A stretch of DNA of 64,000 nucleotides, from IMG/VR virus record IMGVR_UViG_3300032240_002575, positions 1-64,000 of that record; one strand, given 5' to 3'. Every line of letters begins with the position of its first letter. Position 1 is the stretch's first letter. This DNA is from a virus. Below are positions 9,347 through 51,272 of this stretch, piece after piece. Both the position numbers and the translations under genes were made by a program. The notes below the pieces were generated by a model, which did no database searches, had not been told where the DNA came from, and saw nothing but the letters and a program-made list of their open reading frames with translations.

Positions 9347-11488
9347 TTAATTACATGACAAACACATGATATCATAAACAATAGTCAATTTAACAACTAT
9401 TTCTTGACCATTCAATGTATTATCACCTGGTTTTGTATTAATAATTATTTGATTATTTAACGAATCTATCGTCACTCCACCAATTCCTGGAATTGTTAAA
9501 AGTAAACTTTTAACCGTGTCGTAATACAAATTATCACTTGGAGCCATGACTAACGTTGTACCTGTGAAAAAGTTTTCACTTGTACTCAAACCTAAAGGGT
9601 TAACTGAAACTTCAACACCAAAAACCGCCGAAATTAAATCACAGTTTGTTTTGTCATTAGTCAAATCATTGAATCCTTCATTTAACATTTGAGTCAATCC
9701 ATACTTTGTTTGTGATTGTACCGTAAATTGGTCTCCAGCCATTACATATGTTTGATAAGATACATAAAGTGACTGACAATCTATTGTTGTACTTCTTGTT
9801 AAAGTACATCCATTTGAATCTACAACAGTTAAACTATATGTTCCACCTGTTAATCCTGAAACTTGGATTTCTTGTGGATTGTTTGGAACATTATTTGACC
9901 AAGAATATGTGAATGGTGGTTCTCCCGTTGATATGAGTGCCGTTAAAGTCCCATCAGAACCATTTCCACATGAGGTACTATACAAACTAAAATCTAAAGG
10001 TTGACTTTCTCCAACGTAAACTTGTGTTGTTTGACTACATCCCGTGAAATCGGTTACGGTAATTGTATGTTGACCTGATGCAACATTTGTAAATGTAACC
10101 GCTGACAATGTTGTATTCAAAACATTTTGAACTCCATCCAAAGAATAACTATATGGCGATTGACCTCCTGTTGTCTTTTGAACAAGAACGGTACCGTTAT
10201 TTTGATTACAAGTTGTCCCTGTTGTTTGTGTTGATATTTCAAAAGTATTGCTTGCAATTAACGTTATTTCATCCATATAAGAACATCCCGAAGAATCTTG
10301 CACTGCAACTCCGTATGTTCCTGAATAAAGATTACTAAATAGTTGGGCGGTTTGTGAATTTATTATATTCAAAGTACTACTATCAGGATAGATTAATGTA
10401 TAGGTATAAGGTGAAGTTCCACCAACAACCGAAATTTTAATAGAACCATTTGTACTTGAACATGTACTTCCTTGGCTTGTTATAGTAACAGATGCAAGAC
10501 CCAATGGAGTCAACAAACTTGTAGAAACTAAAATATTACAGAATGCAGAATCAGTTACCAAAACACTATAATCACCTGCGGACAATCCTGAAATCGACCA
10601 AGTCTTTGCATATTGTATTTGAACATTTCCTGTTGATGCAGAATAATAATATGGCGCAGTTCCACCTGTAATTTGAATCGTTAAAACACCATTATTTGAA
10701 AAACAAGTTGGTTGTATTGCTGTGAATGCTCCAAAACCTAAAACATCCACGTCTGAAACAACAGCGGTTTGTGTTAATGAACATCCCAAACTGTCAGTAA
10801 CTTGTACTGAATATGTTCCTGACGTTAAACCTGTAATACTACTCGTTGTAAAACCATTACTCCATAGATAGGTATATGGTGCAACACCTGTCTGTCCTGT
10901 AACAATTATCTTTCCAATTGGTGTGCCACCGCAACTCGAGTTCGGAACAATATATAATCCGTATTCGAACGGTTGACTATCTTCAACTATAAAGTTTGCA
11001 GTTTGACCGGTAGAACCACCCAAATCTTCAACAAGCATGAAATAAGTACCAGCGCTCAAGTTGTTAAAAACTACATTCGATGTATTTGTAATTGCAGAAG
11101 TGATATAAGTGTTATAACCAGAATACAAGTAAAAATTTGTTGTTGAGTAGTTTGAAGTTGATGTACCCGTAACTGAACCATTATCTAAAGCACATGTTGT
11201 GCTTTGAACCGCAACTATACTTCCACAGACTCCAGACGATACAGGTATGTTAATGTAAAATTCTTGGTTTGTGGGCAACGTACTGTCGTTAACCCTTACA
11301 CCATAAGTGTCCGCACTTAAACCAGTTCTGATTGATGGATTAAAAGTAACAACGTCTGAACCCAAGTTTGGACTAACCCATTCTACTGTATATGGTGGAG
11401 TACCACCATTTAAGGTTATTGAAATCGACCCTACATTTGTGTTAGTTGAGTCCCCTGTTACCAATATATTATACTGAAATGCTGACAT
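9347..11488 (-). CDS. SprB-repeat adhesin-like virion protein
   Basis: About 7 repeats of G.I.....GG..PYTY.WS.......L..GTY.V.V.D..GC, typical of Bacteroidota SprB repeats. Start at 11488 (MSAFQY) or 11500. Confidence 0.8.
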   Translation of the reverse strand: MSAFQYNILVTGDSTNTNVGSISITLNGGTPPYTVEWVSPNLGSDVVTFNPSIRTGLSADTYGVRVNDSTLPTNQEFYINIPVSSGVCGSIVAVQSTTCALDNGSVTGTSTSNYSTTNFYLYSGYNTYITSAITNTSNVVFNNLSAGTYFMLVEDLGGSTGQTANFIVEDSQPFEYGLYIVPNSSCGGTPIGKIIVTGQTGVAPYTYLWSNGFTTSSITGLTSGTYSVQVTDSLGCSLTQTAVVSDVDVLGFGAFTAIQPTCFSNNGVLTIQITGGTAPYYYSASTGNVQIQYAKTWSISGLSAGDYSVLVTDSAFCNILVSTSLLTPLGLASVTITSQGSTCSSTNGSIKISVVGGTSPYTYTLIYPDSSTLNIINSQTAQLFSNLYSGTYGVAVQDSSGCSYMDEITLIASNTFEISTQTTGTTCNQNNGTVLVQKTTGGQSPYSYSLDGVQNVLNTTLSAVTFTNVASGQHTITVTDFTGCSQTTQVYVGESQPLDFSLYSTSCGNGSDGTLTALISTGEPPFTYSWSNNVPNNPQEIQVSGLTGGTYSLTVVDSNGCTLTRSTTIDCQSLYVSYQTYVMAGDQFTVQSQTKYGLTQMLNEGFNDLTNDKTNCDLISAVFGVEVSVNPLGLSTSENFFTGTTLVMAPSDNLYYDTVKSLLLTIPGIGGVTIDSLNNQIIINTKPGDNTLNGQEIVVKLTIVYDIMCLSCN

Positions 11489-46999: not shown

Positions 47000-48847
47000 T
47001 TATTTATGTTTTTCCAACTCTTTCGATTTTTGGGTGAAGTATTCATAAATTTTCTTTTTGAACTCTTCTGACTCAAAATATGTTTTGAATTGTTGTTCAC
47101 TTACTCCTGCAGGTGCATCAACTTTAATTGTTATTGTACCTCCAAAGTCAACTTGTGAATTCACTTGAGTTGTTTTGGTTTTGGTGTCCGCTCCTGTTGA
47201 TGAAGCACCTTTTCCAAATACGGCGCTTCTTGTTAAAGGTTCCGCTGTTGTGGTTCCTTTAATAGGTGTGGTTTGTTTAGGAACTTTTGTTGCACTTTTG
47301 GTTCCTGTTAAAATTTCTGAAGTATATCTTTTGAATTCTTTTTCTATTTCACTATTACCCGTTATTTTTTTGTTAGTTTCTTGTAAAATATCTTTGAGAG
47401 CGTTAATTCCCTTTTCACCATATAAGTTAGCTTTACCTCTTATTTGGTCTTCCAAATCAGATATTTTTTTTGTAAAGTCCGCGTCACTTATTTTTCCCAT
47501 ATCTTTTTTGCTGAACAATTCAACCATCTGTGAAACAGAATTGTTCACACTTTTGGTTATTTCAGAACTTTCAGGAATATTTTTATCAACAGCACCGGTT
47601 ACCGCTCTTGTAATTCTTTCTGCACCCACCAGATTTCCTCTTATAATTGAAGAGCCTGCAATACCGAAAGTACCTTTGGCAATGTTTGCATCCAAAGAAG
47701 CTTGTATGTTTTTTAATACATCTAATTGGCTTTCTTGAATTTCTTCCAAAGTTTGTGGTCCTTCTTCTTGCGCTTTCCTTAATTTTTGAAACTCTTCTTG
47801 TGTAATGTCAGTCAATTTCTTTTGTTCAAATTCACCCTTTTCGTTTTTAAGTCTGACTGTATATTCACCTTCACTGTTCATTGTAGCCATATTGGCTAAA
47901 AATTCTTTGTCTTCAGGTTTTTCAAATTTTAATGATGGGCTAATTTTAGAAATTCTATTATCTAAATCAGCAGCGGCAAGTGCAGTTTTGGACAGTTCTT
48001 TAGCACTTATGCCCGTTACATCGGCCATTTCTTTTAACATTAAAATACCCTGTGGGTTAATTTTGAATGTTTTTGTTTTTTCATCGAATTCTGTAAACTG
48101 TTTTGTTGCTTTAATAATACTATCTTGTAATGCTCCAGGGTCATTGATAGCATCATTCATCAAAGAGAATGGGTCAACTAAATTTCCTATGTTGACACCC
48201 AATCTTTGGAAACCCGCAGCTGCCTCTATAGCTTTTTCAGGAGACATAACTTTGTCAGCAAATTCTGCAGTTCTATTCATATCAAATCTCAACATTGATG
48301 CTTGAGCTGCCATTTTAGTTAATCCTTGAACTCCATCGGCAAAATTGAATCTGTTCATCATATCCATATTTTGCACTACGTCTTTTGTCACTACTTTTGC
48401 ATTCAACCCAATACTTTGGACATACTGAATTGACCCTTCTAAATTTTTACCTATCAATGCTGCGTCAATACCTGCACTCTCAAAATTTTCTACTAAAGTG
48501 GCGGAACTAGTTCCTAAAATTTTGGATGCTGCATAAAGTTTGCTAACTTGTTCTTCGGTTGCAATGACGTTTCGTCTTGCTCCTTCAGAAATTTCTTGCA
48601 TGGTTTCACTAACGTTGGTTATATCACCACCTAATCGAATTACACCCGCCGCGGCTTTTGAAACCGCATCGTTCATTTCTTCTAACCTTGTTCTTCCTTG
48701 AAGGAACGCATTGTTAAGTTTATCGGCCTCACTATACATGTCGCCAATAGCATTCAATATTTCCGTTACAGGTTGACCAAGTTTTTTTATACTTTCTTCA
48801 AGGTCCTTTGCACTACCTCTGTCGTTGGGGTTGTCGTTAACTGCCAT
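47000..48847 (-). CDS. Probable tape measure protein
   Basis: 615-aa helical Ala/Lys/Glu-rich protein in the canonical position (tube - chaperone - TMP - initiator - LysM - hub). Confidence 0.65.
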   Translation of the reverse strand: MAVNDNPNDRGSAKDLEESIKKLGQPVTEILNAIGDMYSEADKLNNAFLQGRTRLEEMNDAVSKAAAGVIRLGGDITNVSETMQEISEGARRNVIATEEQVSKLYAASKILGTSSATLVENFESAGIDAALIGKNLEGSIQYVQSIGLNAKVVTKDVVQNMDMMNRFNFADGVQGLTKMAAQASMLRFDMNRTAEFADKVMSPEKAIEAAAGFQRLGVNIGNLVDPFSLMNDAINDPGALQDSIIKATKQFTEFDEKTKTFKINPQGILMLKEMADVTGISAKELSKTALAAADLDNRISKISPSLKFEKPEDKEFLANMATMNSEGEYTVRLKNEKGEFEQKKLTDITQEEFQKLRKAQEEGPQTLEEIQESQLDVLKNIQASLDANIAKGTFGIAGSSIIRGNLVGAERITRAVTGAVDKNIPESSEITKSVNNSVSQMVELFSKKDMGKISDADFTKKISDLEDQIRGKANLYGEKGINALKDILQETNKKITGNSEIEKEFKRYTSEILTGTKSATKVPKQTTPIKGTTTAEPLTRSAVFGKGASSTGADTKTKTTQVNSQVDFGGTITIKVDAPAGVSEQQFKTYFESEEFKKKIYEYFTQKSKELEKHK

Positions 48848-48873
48848 AGTTTACTTTTTCTATATAAATAGAA

Positions 48874-48897
48874 GAAGGACTAAAAATTTAGTCCTTC
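48874..48897 (-). terminator. Hairpin/terminator at the end of the chaperone extension
   Basis: 10-bp stem GAAGGACTAA / TTAGTCCTTC covering the TAA at 48888-48890. Confidence 0.6.
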
Positions 48898-49043
48898 CTG
48901 TTATCTTCAATCCATTTATCCAATAAATATTTTCTTACAAAAATCGGCATTTGGACAAAATCTTGATACGTAATTTTCATTAAATTATTCAAATAATAAA
49001 ACTCATCTATTTGACTTTTCCTATAATCAGAAGAAAGGGCGAA
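48888..49043 (-). CDS. Tail assembly chaperone C-terminal extension ('T' part), +1 frame of the upstream gene
   Basis: Not in the ORF track. Open frame FALSSDYRKSQIDEFYYLNNLMKITYQDFVQMPIFVRKYLLDKWIEDNRKD* fills the gap to the TMP. Alternative ATG at 49067 (59 aa). Confidence 0.75.
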   Translation of the reverse strand, partial: FALSSDYRKSQIDEFYYLNNLMKITYQDFVQMPIFVRKYLLDKWIEDNRKD

Positions 49044-49770
49044 AAAATTCGACCCCAAACCCAACATTCACTGTTAGTTTTTCTCCAGACGGGGCCATAA
49101 TAGTTTTATTCATATCCAATCTTGGTTCGTTTTCATTCATAAAGTTTCGGATGAATTTTGAATCGGAAATTGGCATTGATTCAATAAATTTTGCAATCGT
49201 TGCTTTATCTGTTGAACCATCAACTTCGACCATTTCCTTTTGCATTCTCCATGTAACCTTGGGAACAACCCTTCCTTGAGGGTAAGTTTCCGCCATTTTA
49301 CTAATTTCCATAATTTCACCGTATGTCAATGGTTTCAACTTTATAGTTGATTGACTTTTTGGTAAAGTAACCGTAAACGTACCATCTTCATTTGGTTGTT
49401 GTCCATTAATAATTGTAAGTTGGTCCAACATTACCGTTGTTTGAAATGTTTTTTTAGTTGCCGGGTCAGTCAAATTTAATGTAATATCAGGACCAAATCC
49501 TGTGTTTCTTAAAAATATCAAAATCGCTTCAACATCGCCCTCAATCAAATCTTCAACTCTGATATCTGGTTCATATATTTTAGCTCTCAACAAATTTAAT
49601 GTTAAATCGTTTGAACCGCCCATGATGATGTTTTCATCTGCGGCTGTTAAATAACCAACTTTTATTGATTTTTTTTTGTTTCTGTAAAAAATACCTTGTG
49701 ATGGTAAAGGAACCACATCGTGTGGTAGTGTGAAATTTTGTTGACCGTAGTCATTTGTTTGATTATCCAT
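49027..49770 (-). CDS. Tail assembly chaperone / T4 gp26-like baseplate hub assembly protein
   Basis: VPLPSQGIFY...YLTAADENI...DLIEGDVEAILIFLRNTGFG, second LPKS repeat, ends EFFRPFF. Lies between tube and TMP. Confidence 0.8.
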   Translation of the reverse strand: MDNQTNDYGQQNFTLPHDVVPLPSQGIFYRNKKKSIKVGYLTAADENIIMGGSNDLTLNLLRAKIYEPDIRVEDLIEGDVEAILIFLRNTGFGPDITLNLTDPATKKTFQTTVMLDQLTIINGQQPNEDGTFTVTLPKSQSTIKLKPLTYGEIMEISKMAETYPQGRVVPKVTWRMQKEMVEVDGSTDKATIAKFIESMPISDSKFIRNFMNENEPRLDMNKTIMAPSGEKLTVNVGFGVEFFRPFF

Positions 49771-49772
49771 AT

Positions 49773-49810
49773 AAAAAAATTAACCGTAAAGTTTATCGCT
49801 TTACGGTTAA
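49773..49810 (-). terminator. Intrinsic terminator after tail tube gene
   Basis: Perfect 12-bp inverted repeat TTAACCGTAAAG / CTTTACGGTTAA (49780-49810), followed by T7 on the minus strand. Confidence 0.8.
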
Positions 49811-49842: not shown

Positions 49843-50331
49843 TTAGTATACTAAAACACATCTGTCCATTCTCAATGTTGCAGATATTGTAGCTAACCCG
49901 TCAGTATTATATGCTAACGAATCAAAGTTAACGTCAGTTAAAAATGTACCATATAAAATCCATTTTTCAACAACAACACCTGTTGGGTCCAACATTTCGA
50001 GGTCAATATCTTTTTTGTAACCCGCAGCATAACCCATACGACCTGTTACTGATTCAGCATGTAAACGAACCCACTCCATAAGAGCTTGAGCTGCAGAAGG
50101 ACCAATTGGGTCACGAAATTTAACTGGAATTGTTTGCCAAGTAAATCTACCCGCAACGTACGTAGACGTATTCAAAAACGGAATTTCTGTAGCAACAATT
50201 TGAATGTGTGGTCTAGCCGTTGATTCTACGAACCATTCGTTAATACCCAAACTTGATGGAAACCTTAAGATGAAACGATTCTGTCGTTTCGGTTCGTAAG
50301 GTATCGGCATTTTCATTAATAAATCAGCCAT
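49843..50331 (-). CDS. Tail tube protein (T4 gp19-like)
   Basis: EPKRQNRF, YVAGRFTWQTIPVKFRD, MEWVRL, YKKDIDLEMLDPTGVVVEKWILYGTF. Confidence 0.9.
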   Translation of the reverse strand: MADLLMKMPIPYEPKRQNRFILRFPSSLGINEWFVESTARPHIQIVATEIPFLNTSTYVAGRFTWQTIPVKFRDPIGPSAAQALMEWVRLHAESVTGRMGYAAGYKKDIDLEMLDPTGVVVEKWILYGTFLTDVNFDSLAYNTDGLATISATLRMDRCVLVY

Positions 50332-50427: not shown

Positions 50428-51258
50428 TTATTTATACTCCTTCTTAATGCCTCCAGCAGTAGAATAAGTCTTAACTATATTATCTGGTTTGTTTTTGAAA
50501 TGTTTACTCATTACTTCTACATTCTTTATATCATCATCTGAAAATCCTATAACTGGTCGCTCTGGTATAAATTCATTGGATATTTTATTTTTTATATAAG
50601 CTTTTTTGTGTAGTATTCCGGCTAAACCCTTGATATAAGCAACAAAATCTTCCATTGCTCGAACTTTTGCTTCTTCAGGATTTGTTGCACCTTGTTCGTC
50701 ACCAAAAGACACGGGGTGGAATTTACAAAGTTCTAAATAAGACTTTATCAAATCATCATCACTCATATCCTCCTCATCGACAAACGTCCTATACTTTTTT
50801 AAGTTTTTCACTAGTTGTTCTTTGTCTATACCATTGAAACCACTAATGATGTAATTGTACACCGCTTGTTTTATAGTTTCAGGATTGTGTCCTCTAGCTG
50901 TGATTATTGAAAAAATGGAACCATTGTTGATAGCTTCTCTAAAATCACCAAAAGCAGGACCTTCTTTAGCTCTCATTGAGTCAATTAAAAAATCTTTATC
51001 TCCTTCAGTTCTAAAATTTCTGAAAGGGTTTTCAGCAAATTCTACAATAGTTTCCCCTTTGTATTCAAAAGGTTTTTTTCCAATCTCACTTCTATATTCG
51101 GCAAAGTCATCAGTACTCATACCAATCTCATCACCATTGTCATTTTTTAATATTATTTTTGTCGGCATATGAACAATATTATCATCCCAATCAAAGGCAT
51201 AATATTTCATATCTGGTGTTCCTTCACCCTTAAATCCTTCTTTAAGTTGTCTTTTCAT
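50428..51258 (-). CDS. HAD-superfamily phosphatase
   Basis: Motif I YAFDWDDNI, motif II IITARGH, motif IV GFSDDD. Start likely at ATG 51258 (MKRQLKEG). Confidence 0.75.
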   Translation of the reverse strand: MKRQLKEGFKGEGTPDMKYYAFDWDDNIVHMPTKIILKNDNGDEIGMSTDDFAEYRSEIGKKPFEYKGETIVEFAENPFRNFRTEGDKDFLIDSMRAKEGPAFGDFREAINNGSIFSIITARGHNPETIKQAVYNYIISGFNGIDKEQLVKNLKKYRTFVDEEDMSDDDLIKSYLELCKFHPVSFGDEQGATNPEEAKVRAMEDFVAYIKGLAGILHKKAYIKNKISNEFIPERPVIGFSDDDIKNVEVMSKHFKNKPDNIVKTYSTAGGIKKEYK

Positions 51259-51272
51259 ATTTGGCAATTAAA

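What the first reader, a model, noticed from the sequence alone, without database searches (positions are those of the whole stretch)
48888..49067. Candidate +1 programmed frameshift (UUU_UUU_CGC) making a G/GT-type tail chaperone pair
Seen: the chaperone ends GAA TTT TTT CGC CCT TTC TTC TGA (49050-49027). The +1 frame from TTC (49043) is open for 51 codons (FALSSDYRKSQIDEFYYL...MPIFVRKYLL...) up to a hairpin just before the TMP gene. Known: lambda-type G/GT chaperones lie between tube and TMP and usually use -1 slippage; UUU_CGN is the +1 motif of influenza PA-X and amalgaviruses. Inference: tRNA-Phe slips from UUU to UUC at a slowly decoded CGC, giving a ~293-aa product alongside the 247-aa one. 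This would imply that the gp26-like protein is a tail chaperone using a +1 (or -2) shift. Caveat: ATG 49067 in the same frame could start a separate 59-aa protein.
Basis: partly seen in the sequence, partly recalled or inferred. Interest (0 to 1): 0.75.

Follow-up and report, generated by a model that had tools for sequence, protein, structure and literature searches.

The report
+1 frameshift in phage hub chaperone
One tail-assembly gene of this uncultured giant phage very probably makes a 247-residue and a 293-residue protein, because some ribosomes slip forward one base at UUU-UUU-CGC; this is the tail-chaperone frameshift of long-tailed phages in an unreported +1 form, in the gene family of T4 gp26 and gp51.

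Summary
The gp26-like ORF (49770..49027, minus strand) ends GAA TTT TTT CGC CCT TTC TTC TGA, and the +1 frame is open for 50 more codons, to 48888.

The +1 programmed frameshift reading is well supported.
- About 175 related loci from at least 10 divergent lineages all have a +1-frame extension running up to the next large gene.
- Sequence variation changes from frame-0 phase to +1 phase exactly at the T-run.
- The two slip-site Phe codons are never TTC, although other conserved Phe codons vary freely.
- CGC is 0.2 per 1000 codons here.
- In 25 of 63 distinct relatives of one sister clade the +1 frame has no start codon at all.
- Natural single-frame proteins (PF12322 plus the extension) align colinearly with the conceptual fusion (E 3e-22).
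- T4 gp51 is the same domain plus a tail of about 48 residues. So T4 seems to make the short and long pair from two genes.

The main caveat is that in this clade ATG 49067 is strictly conserved, so an extra free-standing 59-residue product cannot be excluded.

I found no published report. The 2016 recoding review states that the G-T frameshift is conserved "except T4". This scan has flagged the same feature many times on other DNA.

The parts
49027..49770 (-). Frame-0 ORF, 247 aa: gp26/gp51-like hub or tail assembly chaperone (the 'G' form)
49041..49047 (-). Proposed slip site UUU_UUU_C: P-site tRNA-Phe re-pairs from UUU (49044-49042) to UUC (49043-49041)
   Evidence: Invariant in 38/38 distinct haplotypes of the clade, while 9 of 10 other conserved Phe columns vary TTT/TTC. 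It is the only site in the overlap that allows +1 re-pairing. The same UUU_CGY motif occurs in four other lineages.
49039..49041 (-). Zero-frame A-site codon CGC, a very rare Arg codon
   Evidence: CGC is 4 of 16,550 codons in 26 window ORFs (0.2 per 1000; 1% of Arg). CGT is 2.8 per 1000. Relatives carry CGC or CGT.
48888..49040 (-). +1-frame extension, 50 codons plus TAA (the 'T' part); the fused product is 293 aa
   Evidence: Variation has +1 coding phase. Synonymous:nonsynonymous is 377:247 in +1, against 47:600 and 96:543 in the other frames. Homologous to the extensions of the Mel-JY01 clade (hhalign E 4e-8). Folds alone as a three-helix mini-domain, pLDDT 91.
49065..49067 (-). ATG in the +1 frame, 8 codons 5' of the +1-frame TTC: a possible independent start (rival or additional product)
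   Evidence: Present in 24/24 distinct contexts. Asn235 is AAT in 38/38 haplotypes, while six other Asn columns vary AAT/AAC. The +1 peptide between this ATG and the T-run is not constrained.
49054..49086 (-). Stretch of suppressed synonymous variation 5' of the slip site (codons 229-239, includes GGAGAA)
   Evidence: 12 of the 29 synonymously invariant codon columns lie in the last 19 codons. Function unknown: a 5' stimulator or a start context. No significant RNA structure (z -0.57).
48872..48899 (-). 12-bp hairpin that contains the stop codon of the extension, terminator-like
   Evidence: -16.3 kcal/mol, z -4.44, 0 of 200 shuffles fold as well.
49843..50331 (-). Tail tube gene (gp19-like), immediately upstream
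   Evidence: phrog_4542 'tail tube': E 1.6e-23.
47000..48847 (-). 615-aa ORF at the tape-measure (T4 gp29) position
   Evidence: Positional only. No Pfam, PHROG or NCBIfam hit and no phage tblastn hit. Weak Atlas lead to PF10145 (score 0.91, rank 22). In immuto, LIS04 and HSE3 the gene at this position is annotated as tape measure.

Best explanation
The gp26-like gene is decoded in two ways. Most ribosomes read frame 0 to TGA (49029-49027) and make a 247-aa protein. A minority pause with peptidyl-tRNA-Phe on the second UUU (49044-49042) while the A site waits for the very rare CGC codon. The tRNA-Phe then re-pairs one base forward on UUC, decoding resumes at GCC (49040), and a 293-aa protein results: residues 1-243 plus a 50-residue three-helix tail.

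Shown here:
- the overlap, the frame relation and the coding status of the extension;
- selection on the slip-site bases;
- the absence of starts in relatives;
- colinearity with natural single-frame homologues.

Inferred:
- that ribosomes, not RNA polymerase, do the slipping;
- the shift efficiency;
- the function.

By analogy with lambda gpG/gpGT and T4 gp26/gp51, the short and long forms would act together as non-virion chaperones. They would do so in assembly of the hub, tape-measure and tube complex, with the tail providing an extra contact.
For: (1) Anatomy.

(2) All 80 close relatives (81-89% aa identity) keep TTT TTT CG[CT] CCT TTC TTC T[GA]A and a 59-61-codon +1 ORF.

(3) Phase switch. 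Mean entropy by frame-0 codon position is 0.30/0.20/0.77 in the gene body and 0.00/0.10/0.54 between ATG and the T-run. After the frame-0 stop it is 0.70/0.28/0.15, which is +1 phase.

(4) Slip-site Phe codons are TTT in 38/38 haplotypes (window clade) and 69-72/72 (Mel-JY01 clade). By contrast, 9/10 and 6/6 other conserved Phe columns vary TTT/TTC.

(5) CGC is 0.2 per 1000 codons.

(6) In every lineage retrieved through the N-domain alone, the +1 frame is open up to the next large gene and the -1 frame is closed. The lineages are Microcystis Mel-JY01, Flavobacterium immuto, Streptococcus GXN1, Listeria LIS04, Bacillus SP-15 and HSE3, Rhodothermus RM378, LR756508, 78 IMG/VR loci and L185-L190.

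(7) In the Mel-JY01 clade, 25 of 63 distinct contexts have no ATG/GTG/TTG in the +1 frame 5' of the site, and 14 have a +1 stop only 3 codons before it. The same holds for RM378, HSE3 and L185; L185 has the identical TTT TTT CGT C site.

(8) The window's extension is homologous to those extensions (hhalign 95-97%, E 4e-8 to 1e-11).

(9) Natural ~310-aa single-frame proteins P0192, P0194 and P0239 carry PF12322 plus the extension. They align colinearly through the junction with the conceptual fusions, at E 1.9e-88 (Mel clade) and E 3.1e-22 (window clade, residues 17-290 against 6-277).

(10) T4 gp51 is PF12322 over residues 1-201 plus a tail of about 48 aa, while gp26 is the domain alone. The natural fusions align with the gp51 family to residue 243 of 249 (E 4.9e-4).

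(11) Only one PF12322 copy occurs in this record and in five relatives of up to 182 kb.
Against: - In this clade an ATG (49067) and a TTG lie in the +1 frame 8 codons 5' of the site, in every haplotype. Its T is never lost by the synonymous AAT to AAC change that six other Asn codons show. An A-rich leader precedes it.
- Dual coding by an independently started ORF could by itself explain the invariance of the T-run in this clade.
- No stimulatory RNA structure was found (z -0.57).
- The zero-frame A-site codon is not rare in all lineages: UGG, UAC, CAC and AGU also occur.
- LIS04 (UUU_A) allows only poor re-pairing, and L190 (UUC_A) allows none at the Phe codon. L186-L190 have an alternative CCC_A site.
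- The records are incomplete (25-61%), so a second paralogue cannot be excluded.
Confidence: 0.8

Rival explanations
1. The 59-codon ORF is a separate gene started at ATG 49067 (or reached by termination-reinitiation after TGA 49027). It would give a free 59-aa 'T-only' protein and no fusion, or exist alongside the fusion.
For: ATG and TTG are present in 24/24 distinct contexts. Asn235 is AAT in 38/38 haplotypes, while six other Asn columns vary. Synonymous variation is suppressed over codons 229-239 just 5' of and across the ATG, and the leader is A-rich. Gene callers routinely call such small ORFs.
Against: The +1 peptide between the ATG and the T-run is hypervariable and varies in frame-0 phase. 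Homologous extensions in relatives have no start at all, and many database ORFs had to be called from an internal Met that cuts off 9-16 conserved residues. Natural single-frame fusions and T4 gp51 show that the tail works as a C-terminal appendage of the domain. The GGAG lies 15 nt from the ATG, which is too far for a Shine-Dalgarno sequence.
Confidence: 0.1
2. The frame change is made at RNA level. RNA polymerase slips on the T6 run (T7 in the sister clade) and drops one U, so a subset of mRNAs encodes the fusion in one frame.
For: The site is a homopolymer: T6 here, and an almost invariant T7 in 69-72 of 72 haplotypes of the Mel-JY01 clade.
Against: Several lineages keep the +1 arrangement without any run longer than three T: TTC TTT CGT (GXN1, HSE3, L188), TTT CTT TGG (immuto) and TTT CTA (LR756508). 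By my knowledge, T6 is shorter than the runs that give efficient bacterial transcriptional slippage. The very rare CGC in the A site is explained by a ribosomal mechanism and not by this one.
Confidence: 0.04
3. The shift is -2 rather than +1. The same frame is entered, but tRNA-Phe slips back two bases on the U-run and one extra Phe is inserted (…VEFFFALSS…), as in the -2 tail-chaperone frameshift of phage Mu.
For: The +1 and -2 frames are the same. Six U allow A-site or P-site tRNA-Phe to re-pair two bases back. A precedent exists in Mu (Xu et al. 2004, recalled from memory).
Against: Lineages with TTC TTT C or TTT CTT T do not allow clean -2 re-pairing. The rare zero-frame A-site codon fits an empty-A-site +1 slip.
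Confidence: 0.05
4. The feature is an artefact or chance: a homopolymer sequencing error splits a single ORF, or the open +1 frame is non-coding.
For: Homopolymer indels are common assembly errors. A few database proteins (P0122, P0125) look like such errors.
Against: The same frame structure appears in about 175 independently assembled loci, with the run length constant. The extension shows strong purifying selection in the +1 frame. The frame-0 C-terminus (FF[RW]P..) is conserved and ends 3-6 codons after the run.
Confidence: 0.01

Closest known systems
Lambda gpG/gpGT and the conserved tail-assembly-chaperone frameshift of long-tailed phages (Xu, Hendrix & Duda 2004; reviewed in Atkins et al. 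2016, PMC5009743)
   Different: The direction is +1, not -1, and there is no X_XXY_YYZ heptamer. The protein family is PF12322 (T4 gp26/gp51), about twice the size of gpG. Binding partners were not tested. The review states that the frameshift is conserved 'except T4'.
Bacteriophage T4 gp26 (208 aa) and gp51 (249 aa), hub assembly chaperones (Leiman et al. 2010, PMC3004832)
   Same: Same Pfam family. gp26 is the domain alone. gp51 is the domain (residues 1-201) plus a C-terminal tail of about 48 aa, similar in length to the 50-aa extension here. Natural single-frame homologues of the fusion align with the gp51 family to residue 243 of 249 (E 4.9e-4). The C-terminal 'EFF' of gp26 aligns with the slip-site FF.
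   Different: T4 uses two separate, divergently transcribed genes and no frameshift. Neither gene lies between the tube and tape-measure genes. Direct profile comparison of the extension with the gp51 tail alone was inconclusive (E 0.02-0.3).
Predicted +1 frameshift in the tail chaperone genes of the archaeal myovirus HSTV-2 (cited in Atkins et al. 2016, PMC5009743)
   Same: A +1 rather than -1 shift at the G/T position of a contractile-tailed virus.
   Different: Archaeal virus. I did not examine its sequence, so relatedness of the proteins and of the site is unknown.
+1 slippage sites with a slow A-site codon: influenza A PA-X (UCC_UUU_CGU) and bacterial prfB (CUU_UGA_C)
   Same: UUU_CGY with tRNA-Phe re-pairing on UUC is the PA-X motif (from memory; Jagger et al. 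2012 is cited in PMC5009743). The immuto site CUU_UGG allows the CUU to UUU re-pairing of prfB. CGC is very rare here.
   Different: There is no Shine-Dalgarno-like stimulator at the prfB spacing of 3 nt. It is a bacterial virus, not a eukaryotic one. The A-site codon is not rare in all lineages.

Membership tests
PF12322 T4_baseplate (T4 gp26/gp51 family) | Score above Pfam's gathering threshold over most of the profile | tested here: met
   31.6 bits against a cut-off of 24.5, E 1.6e-7, profile positions 12-202 of 219. Confirmed on DNA at 30.4 bits. T4 gp26 and gp51 score 216 and 178 bits.
G/GT-type tail assembly chaperone frameshift (Xu et al. 2004) | Overlapping ORF pair between the major tail (tube) gene and the tape measure gene | tested here: met
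   Tube gene 50331..49843 (phrog_4542, E 1.6e-23). ORF pair 49770..48888. The next gene is a 615-aa ORF at the gp29 position. Its identity as tape measure is positional only.
G/GT-type tail assembly chaperone frameshift (Xu et al. 2004) | [quoted passage not shown] | tested here: inconclusive
   Met in relatives: 25 of 63 Mel-clade contexts, RM378, HSE3 and L185. In the window's own clade a conserved ATG and TTG lie 8 codons 5' of the site.
G/GT-type tail assembly chaperone frameshift (Xu et al. 2004) | -1 shift on an X_XXY_YYZ heptanucleotide | tested here: not met
   The extension is in the +1 frame, and the -1 frame closes within a few codons in all lineages. T6C lies in phase TTT_TTT_C.
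G/GT-type tail assembly chaperone frameshift (Xu et al. 2004) | Slip site conserved at nucleotide level beyond what the protein requires | tested here: met
   No TTC at either slip-site Phe codon in 38 and 69-72 haplotypes, while 15 of 16 other conserved Phe columns vary.
G/GT-type tail assembly chaperone frameshift (Xu et al. 2004) | Tail assembly chaperone fold of the G part | tested here: inconclusive
G/GT-type tail assembly chaperone frameshift (Xu et al. 2004) | The G part binds the tape measure and the T part binds the tube protein; both are absent from virions; the ratio is fixed and low | not testable with these tools
No proteomic or expression data were available.
P-site-slippage +1 programmed frameshift (prfB, PA-X type) | The P-site tRNA can re-pair in the +1 frame | tested here: met
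   UUU to UUC here. UUU to UUU, or CUU to UUU, in most relatives. Exceptions are LIS04 and L186-L190.
P-site-slippage +1 programmed frameshift (prfB, PA-X type) | A slowly decoded zero-frame A-site codon | tested here: met
   CGC is 4 of 16,550 codons, 1% of Arg codons. This rests on codon usage only. No tRNA gene is in the window, and host tRNA levels are unknown.
P-site-slippage +1 programmed frameshift (prfB, PA-X type) | A cis stimulator (Shine-Dalgarno-like element 3 nt 5' of the site, or a 3' structure) | tested here: inconclusive
   GGGG lies 8 nt 5' of the P-site codon, not 3 nt. The local fold has z -0.57, and its stem is broken in relatives. However, synonymous variation is suppressed over about 45 nt 5' of the site.
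Transcriptional slippage | A long homopolymer run conserved in all members | tested here: not met
   T6 or T7 in two clades, but runs of no more than 3 T in GXN1, HSE3, L188, immuto and LR756508, which keep the same +1 arrangement.

The most novel reading that the evidence does not exclude
The PF12322 family (T4 gp26/gp51) is the long-missing G/GT tail-chaperone system of T4-like and many other large myoviruses. The same short and long protein pair is obtained in three interchangeable ways. Many lineages, from Bacteroidota, cyanobacterial, Firmicutes and Rhodothermus phages, use a +1 ribosomal frameshift on UUU_(C/U); this window uses the PA-X-like UUU_CGC with a hungry Arg codon. Some lineages use a single fused ORF. 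T4 uses two paralogous genes. That would remove the one stated exception ('except T4') to the universality of the tail-chaperone short/long pair. It would also add a large natural family of bacterial +1 sites, possibly with a 5' element in this clade.
Probability: 0.55. Interest if true: 0.75.

Novelty: new variant of a known kind. Interest (0 to 1): 0.66.

Why it matters
Programmed frameshifting in tail chaperone genes is a textbook case of recoding. It is described as -1 (rarely -2), and the 2016 recoding review says it is conserved 'except T4'.

Here the T4 hub-chaperone family turns out to carry a deeply conserved +1 version of that recoding. The extension profile finds 1369 sequence clusters. 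T4's two genes, 26 and 51, look like the unfused equivalent.

Three consequences follow.
- It gives a testable function, a length-determining or hub-initiating chaperone pair, to two T4 proteins that are poorly understood.
- It corrects the annotation of thousands of phage genomes, in which the extension is either missed or called as a truncated small ORF.
- It provides many natural bacterial +1 sites for mechanistic work, including several that carry the UUU_CGY motif known from influenza PA-X.

Tried and rejected
(1) Extension against the T4 gp51 tail: hhalign of the extension, or of the whole conceptual fusion, against T4 gp51 alone or a narrow gp51 family gave no usable signal (E 0.02-0.5, with inconsistent alignments). 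Only the route through natural single-frame fusions gave a colinear match (E 4.9e-4).

(2) Internal repeat: MAFFT placed the extension on an internal segment of the N-domain ('SMPISDSKFIR'). hhalign gave E 0.08-0.4, so this was rejected as spurious.

(3) Stimulatory RNA structure around the site: z -0.57, and the stem is not conserved. Rejected.

(4) Structure of the fused product: alignments that mix fragments were misaligned (A3, A4, A7). I therefore modelled the 247-aa protein and the extension separately and sent the fused sequences to no other remote tool.

(5) Foldseek of the 247-aa model against the PDB found nothing at E <= 0.001. Foldseek of the 50-aa extension against BFVD gave only E > 1; three 'tail assembly chaperone' rows there are leads only.

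So there is no binding test, no junction DNA for P0121 and no RNA evidence.

(7) The 615-aa neighbour has no Pfam, PHROG or NCBIfam hit and no tblastn hit in phages, and only a weak Atlas lead.

(8) Relatives of the LR756508 gene in IMG/VR: none found.

(9) A ribosome-binding-site argument was not used, because the genes in this window show no Shine-Dalgarno usage.

(10) Four further database proteins join an extension-like stretch to unrelated sequence: P0123 and P0124 to unrelated enzyme domains, P0126 and P0127 to stretches without a recorded Pfam domain. They look like chimeric calls and were not used as evidence.
Full report
**1. The observation.**
On the minus strand the 247-codon ORF 49770..49027 ends ...GTC GAA TTT TTT CGC CCT TTC TTC TGA. 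A second ORF, 49067..48888, overlaps it in the +1 frame (49770-49067 = 703 = 3n+1). From TTC (49043) the +1 frame is open for 51 codons. It ends at TAA 48890-48888, inside a 12-bp hairpin (48899..48872; -16.3 kcal/mol, z -4.4). The ATG of a 615-aa ORF follows 24 nt later.

**2. Context.**
The window is part of a 77.6-kb fragment of an uncultured virus, estimated 25% complete.
- The gene order on the minus strand is: sheath (1080 aa; phrog_23, E 1.7e-56), a 279-aa ORF, tube (phrog_4542, E 1.6e-23), the 247-aa ORF, the +1 ORF, a 615-aa ORF and a 1666-aa ORF.
- The 247-aa protein belongs to PF12322 T4_baseplate (31.6 bits, cut-off 24.5) and phrog_150 'baseplate hub'.
- The 615-aa ORF has no family match and only a weak language-model lead to a tape-measure family. 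Its assignment as tape measure is positional.
- In Flavobacterium phage immuto, Listeria phage LIS04 and Bacillus phage HSE3 the gene at that position is annotated as tape measure.

**3. Close relatives.**
Eighty IMG/VR loci with 81-89% amino-acid identity all carry TTT TTT CG[C/T] CCT TTC TTC T[G/A]A and a 59-61-codon +1 ORF.
- Variation among 36 haplotypes shows a phase switch at the T-run.
  - Mean column entropy by frame-0 codon position is 0.30/0.20/0.77 in the gene body.
  - It is 0.00/0.10/0.54 between ATG 49067 and the run, which is still frame-0 phase.
  - It is 0.70/0.28/0.15 after the frame-0 stop, which is +1 phase.
- Codon differences in the extension are 377 synonymous to 247 nonsynonymous in the +1 frame. 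They are 47:600 and 96:543 in the other two frames.
- So the extension is a protein-coding sequence, and the +1 frame carries no detectable constraint 5' of the T-run.
- The two slip-site Phe codons are TTT in 38 of 38 haplotypes, while 9 of the 10 other conserved Phe columns vary TTT/TTC.
- CGC occurs 4 times in 16,550 codons of 26 window ORFs (0.2 per 1000; 1% of Arg). One of the four is the slip-site codon.

**4. Distant relatives.**
All relatives were retrieved through the N-terminal domain only, so the sample is unbiased with respect to what follows it.
- Nine annotated or deposited records all have the +1 frame open from just before the frame-0 stop up to the next large gene (63-94 codons past the stop), and a closed -1 frame. 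They are Microcystis Mel-JY01, Flavobacterium immuto, Streptococcus GXN1, Listeria LIS04, Bacillus SP-15 and HSE3, Rhodothermus RM378 and the 484-kb LR756508.
- Seventy-eight IMG/VR relatives of the Mel-JY01 gene (43-59% identity to it) show the same pattern. Their sequence TTT TTT TGG CCT is almost invariant, and their extension is highly conserved.
  - The two Phe codons are TTT in 69/69 and 72/72 haplotypes, while all six other conserved Phe columns vary.
  - In 25 of 63 distinct contexts the +1 frame has no ATG, GTG or TTG between its upstream stop and the run.
  - In 14 of them that stop lies only three codons before the first post-slip codon.
- RM378, HSE3 and L185 likewise have no start. 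L185 carries the very motif of the window, TTT TTT CGT C.
- Six further loci (L185-L190) keep the +1 arrangement.
  - L186-L190 have UUA UUU/UUC AAU CCC AGU.
  - There the re-pairing site is more likely CCC_A.
- The sites seen are:
  - UUU_UUU_CGY (window clade, L185);
  - UUC_UUU_CGU (GXN1, HSE3, L188);
  - UUU_UUU_UGG (Mel clade, RM378);
  - UUU_CUU_UGG (immuto);
  - UUU_UUU_CAC (SP-15);
  - UUU_UUU_AGU (LIS04);
  - UUU_CUA (LR756508).
- In nearly all of them the P-site tRNA can re-pair one base forward.
- The window's extension is homologous to the Mel-clade extensions (hhalign 95%, E 4e-8 for the extension alone). The N-domains are homologous at E 2.4e-23.

**5. The fusion is a natural protein form.**
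A profile of 35 extensions (A2) finds 1369 clusters at E <= 1e-3 among 1.84 billion representatives.
- Nearly all are ORFs of 53-130 aa. In many of them the called protein starts at profile position 9-17, that is, at an internal Met, because no start lies upstream.
- Three proteins of about 310 aa (P0192, P0194, P0239) carry the extension at their C-terminus (residues about 230-304) after a PF12322 domain (E 1.7e-8, 4.6e-17, 1.1e-9), all in one frame. P0121 is a further case.
- These natural fusions align colinearly, straight through the junction, with the conceptual +1 fusions: E 1.9e-88 for the Mel clade and E 3.1e-22 for the window clade (residues 17-290 against 6-277).
- This is the classical comparative argument for a programmed frameshift.

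**6. T4.**
- T4 gp26 (208 aa) is the PF12322 domain alone (residues 1-206). T4 gp51 (249 aa) is the domain (residues 1-201, E 3.9e-52) plus a tail of about 48 residues.
- gp26 ends ...KEFFELL, and its FF aligns with the slip-site FF.
- The natural fusions align with a gp51 family alignment from residue 10 to 243 of 249 (E 4.9e-4, probability 32%). That alignment puts the conserved Y..MP..R motif of the extension on Y..M(I/L)P.ER of gp51.
- Direct comparisons of the extension with the gp51 tail were inconclusive.
- I therefore regard 'gp51 is the long form and gp26 the short form' as likely but not proven.
- Only one PF12322 gene is found in this record and in five related records of up to 182 kb. 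This is as expected if one gene supplies both forms, but the records are incomplete.

**7. Structure.**
- The 247-aa protein models well: pLDDT 82.9, pTM 0.79.
- Foldseek finds nothing significant. The only row with a reasonable rmsd is the HK97 tail assembly chaperone.
- From memory, yqbN/xkdN is the chaperone gene before the tape measure gene of the skin and PBSX prophages.
- The extension alone folds confidently (pLDDT 91) as three helices: 4-21, 25-30 and 33-47.

**8. Mechanism.**
- The best-supported mechanism is a +1 ribosomal shift. Peptidyl-tRNA-Phe moves from UUU to UUC while the A site waits for rare CGC, and decoding resumes at GCC.
- It is the only re-pairing site in the 18-nt window between the conserved ATG-proximal region and the frame-0 stop.
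- A -2 shift would enter the same frame and add one Phe.
- Transcriptional slippage is unlikely as a family-wide mechanism, because several lineages have no T-run longer than three.
- I found no stimulatory RNA structure.
- However, 12 of the 29 synonymously invariant codons of the gene lie in its last 19 codons, and they extend about 45 nt 5' of the site. This is unexplained.
  - It could be a 5' stimulator.
  - It could instead be the context of ATG 49067, which is strictly conserved in this clade: Asn235 is AAT in 38/38, while six other Asn columns vary.
- So a free 59-aa product, instead of or more likely besides the fusion, cannot be excluded here.

**9. Literature and novelty.**
- Full-text searches found no report of a frameshift in gp26/gp51-type genes.
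- The records examined annotate the extension either not at all or as a small 'hypothetical protein'.
[quoted passage not shown] It also states that the archaeal myovirus HSTV-2 very likely uses +1.
- T4 gp26 and gp51 are listed as hub assembly chaperones.
- I class the finding as a new variant of a known kind.
- This scan has flagged the same feature before on other DNA, in many windows. I tested the leads I took from those notes myself: the gp26/gp51 pair, the 'except T4' wording and the chaperone fold.

**10. Tools that could not be used.**
- Hence there is no model of the fused product, no binding test and no expression evidence.

Noticed in passing
window 49780-49810 (minus strand): A terminator-like hairpin (12 pairs, followed by TTTTTTTATA) sits between the tube gene and the start of the gp26-like gene. 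Bacillus phage SP-15 has an annotated rho-independent terminator at the same place. It may act as an attenuator that lowers chaperone and tape-measure expression relative to sheath and tube.
   Followed up: partly
window 49054-49086 (minus strand): Synonymous variation is suppressed over codons 229-239 of the gp26-like gene, including GGAGAA and the +1-frame ATG TTG. 12 of the 29 synonymously invariant codons of the whole gene lie in its last 19 codons. It is unexplained: either a 5' frameshift stimulator or an internal start context.
   Followed up: partly
L186-L190 (IMG/VR loci), about 1500-1535: A sub-lineage keeps the +1 extension although its Phe codon is UUU_A or even UUC_A (L190). The conserved AAT CCC AGT just downstream offers a CCC_A +1 site instead, so the slip site seems to have moved within the overlap.
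   Followed up: partly
P0123, P0124, P0126, P0127: These database proteins join an extension-like stretch to unrelated sequence. P0123 carries an HpcH/HpaI aldolase-type domain and P0124 a UDP-glucose dehydrogenase-type domain; P0126 and P0127 have long stretches without a recorded Pfam domain.
   Followed up: no
L183 (Rhodothermus phage RM378), 2498-3377: In RM378 the gp26-like gene and its +1 extension are followed by the tube gene on the opposite strand and not by a tape-measure gene. The pair is therefore not always next to the tape measure. The annotated Rm378p030 is the extension called from an internal Met.
   Followed up: partly
window 50428-51267 (minus strand): A 279-aa ORF between the sheath and tube genes has no match in Pfam, PHROGs or NCBIfam.
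   Followed up: no
window 49027-49770 compared with A1: Most family members (T4 gp26, GXN1, LIS04, SP-15, P0192-P0239) have two CxxC pairs, a probable zinc ribbon. The window clade has lost all four Cys (DPATKKT ... APSGEKL).
   Followed up: no
L004 (T4), 10349-10404: T4 gene 28 overlaps the end of gene 27 by 56 nt, directly before the tape-measure gene 29. This is another overlapping pair at a chaperone-like position. It is annotated as a separate gene with a determined N-terminus.
   Followed up: no
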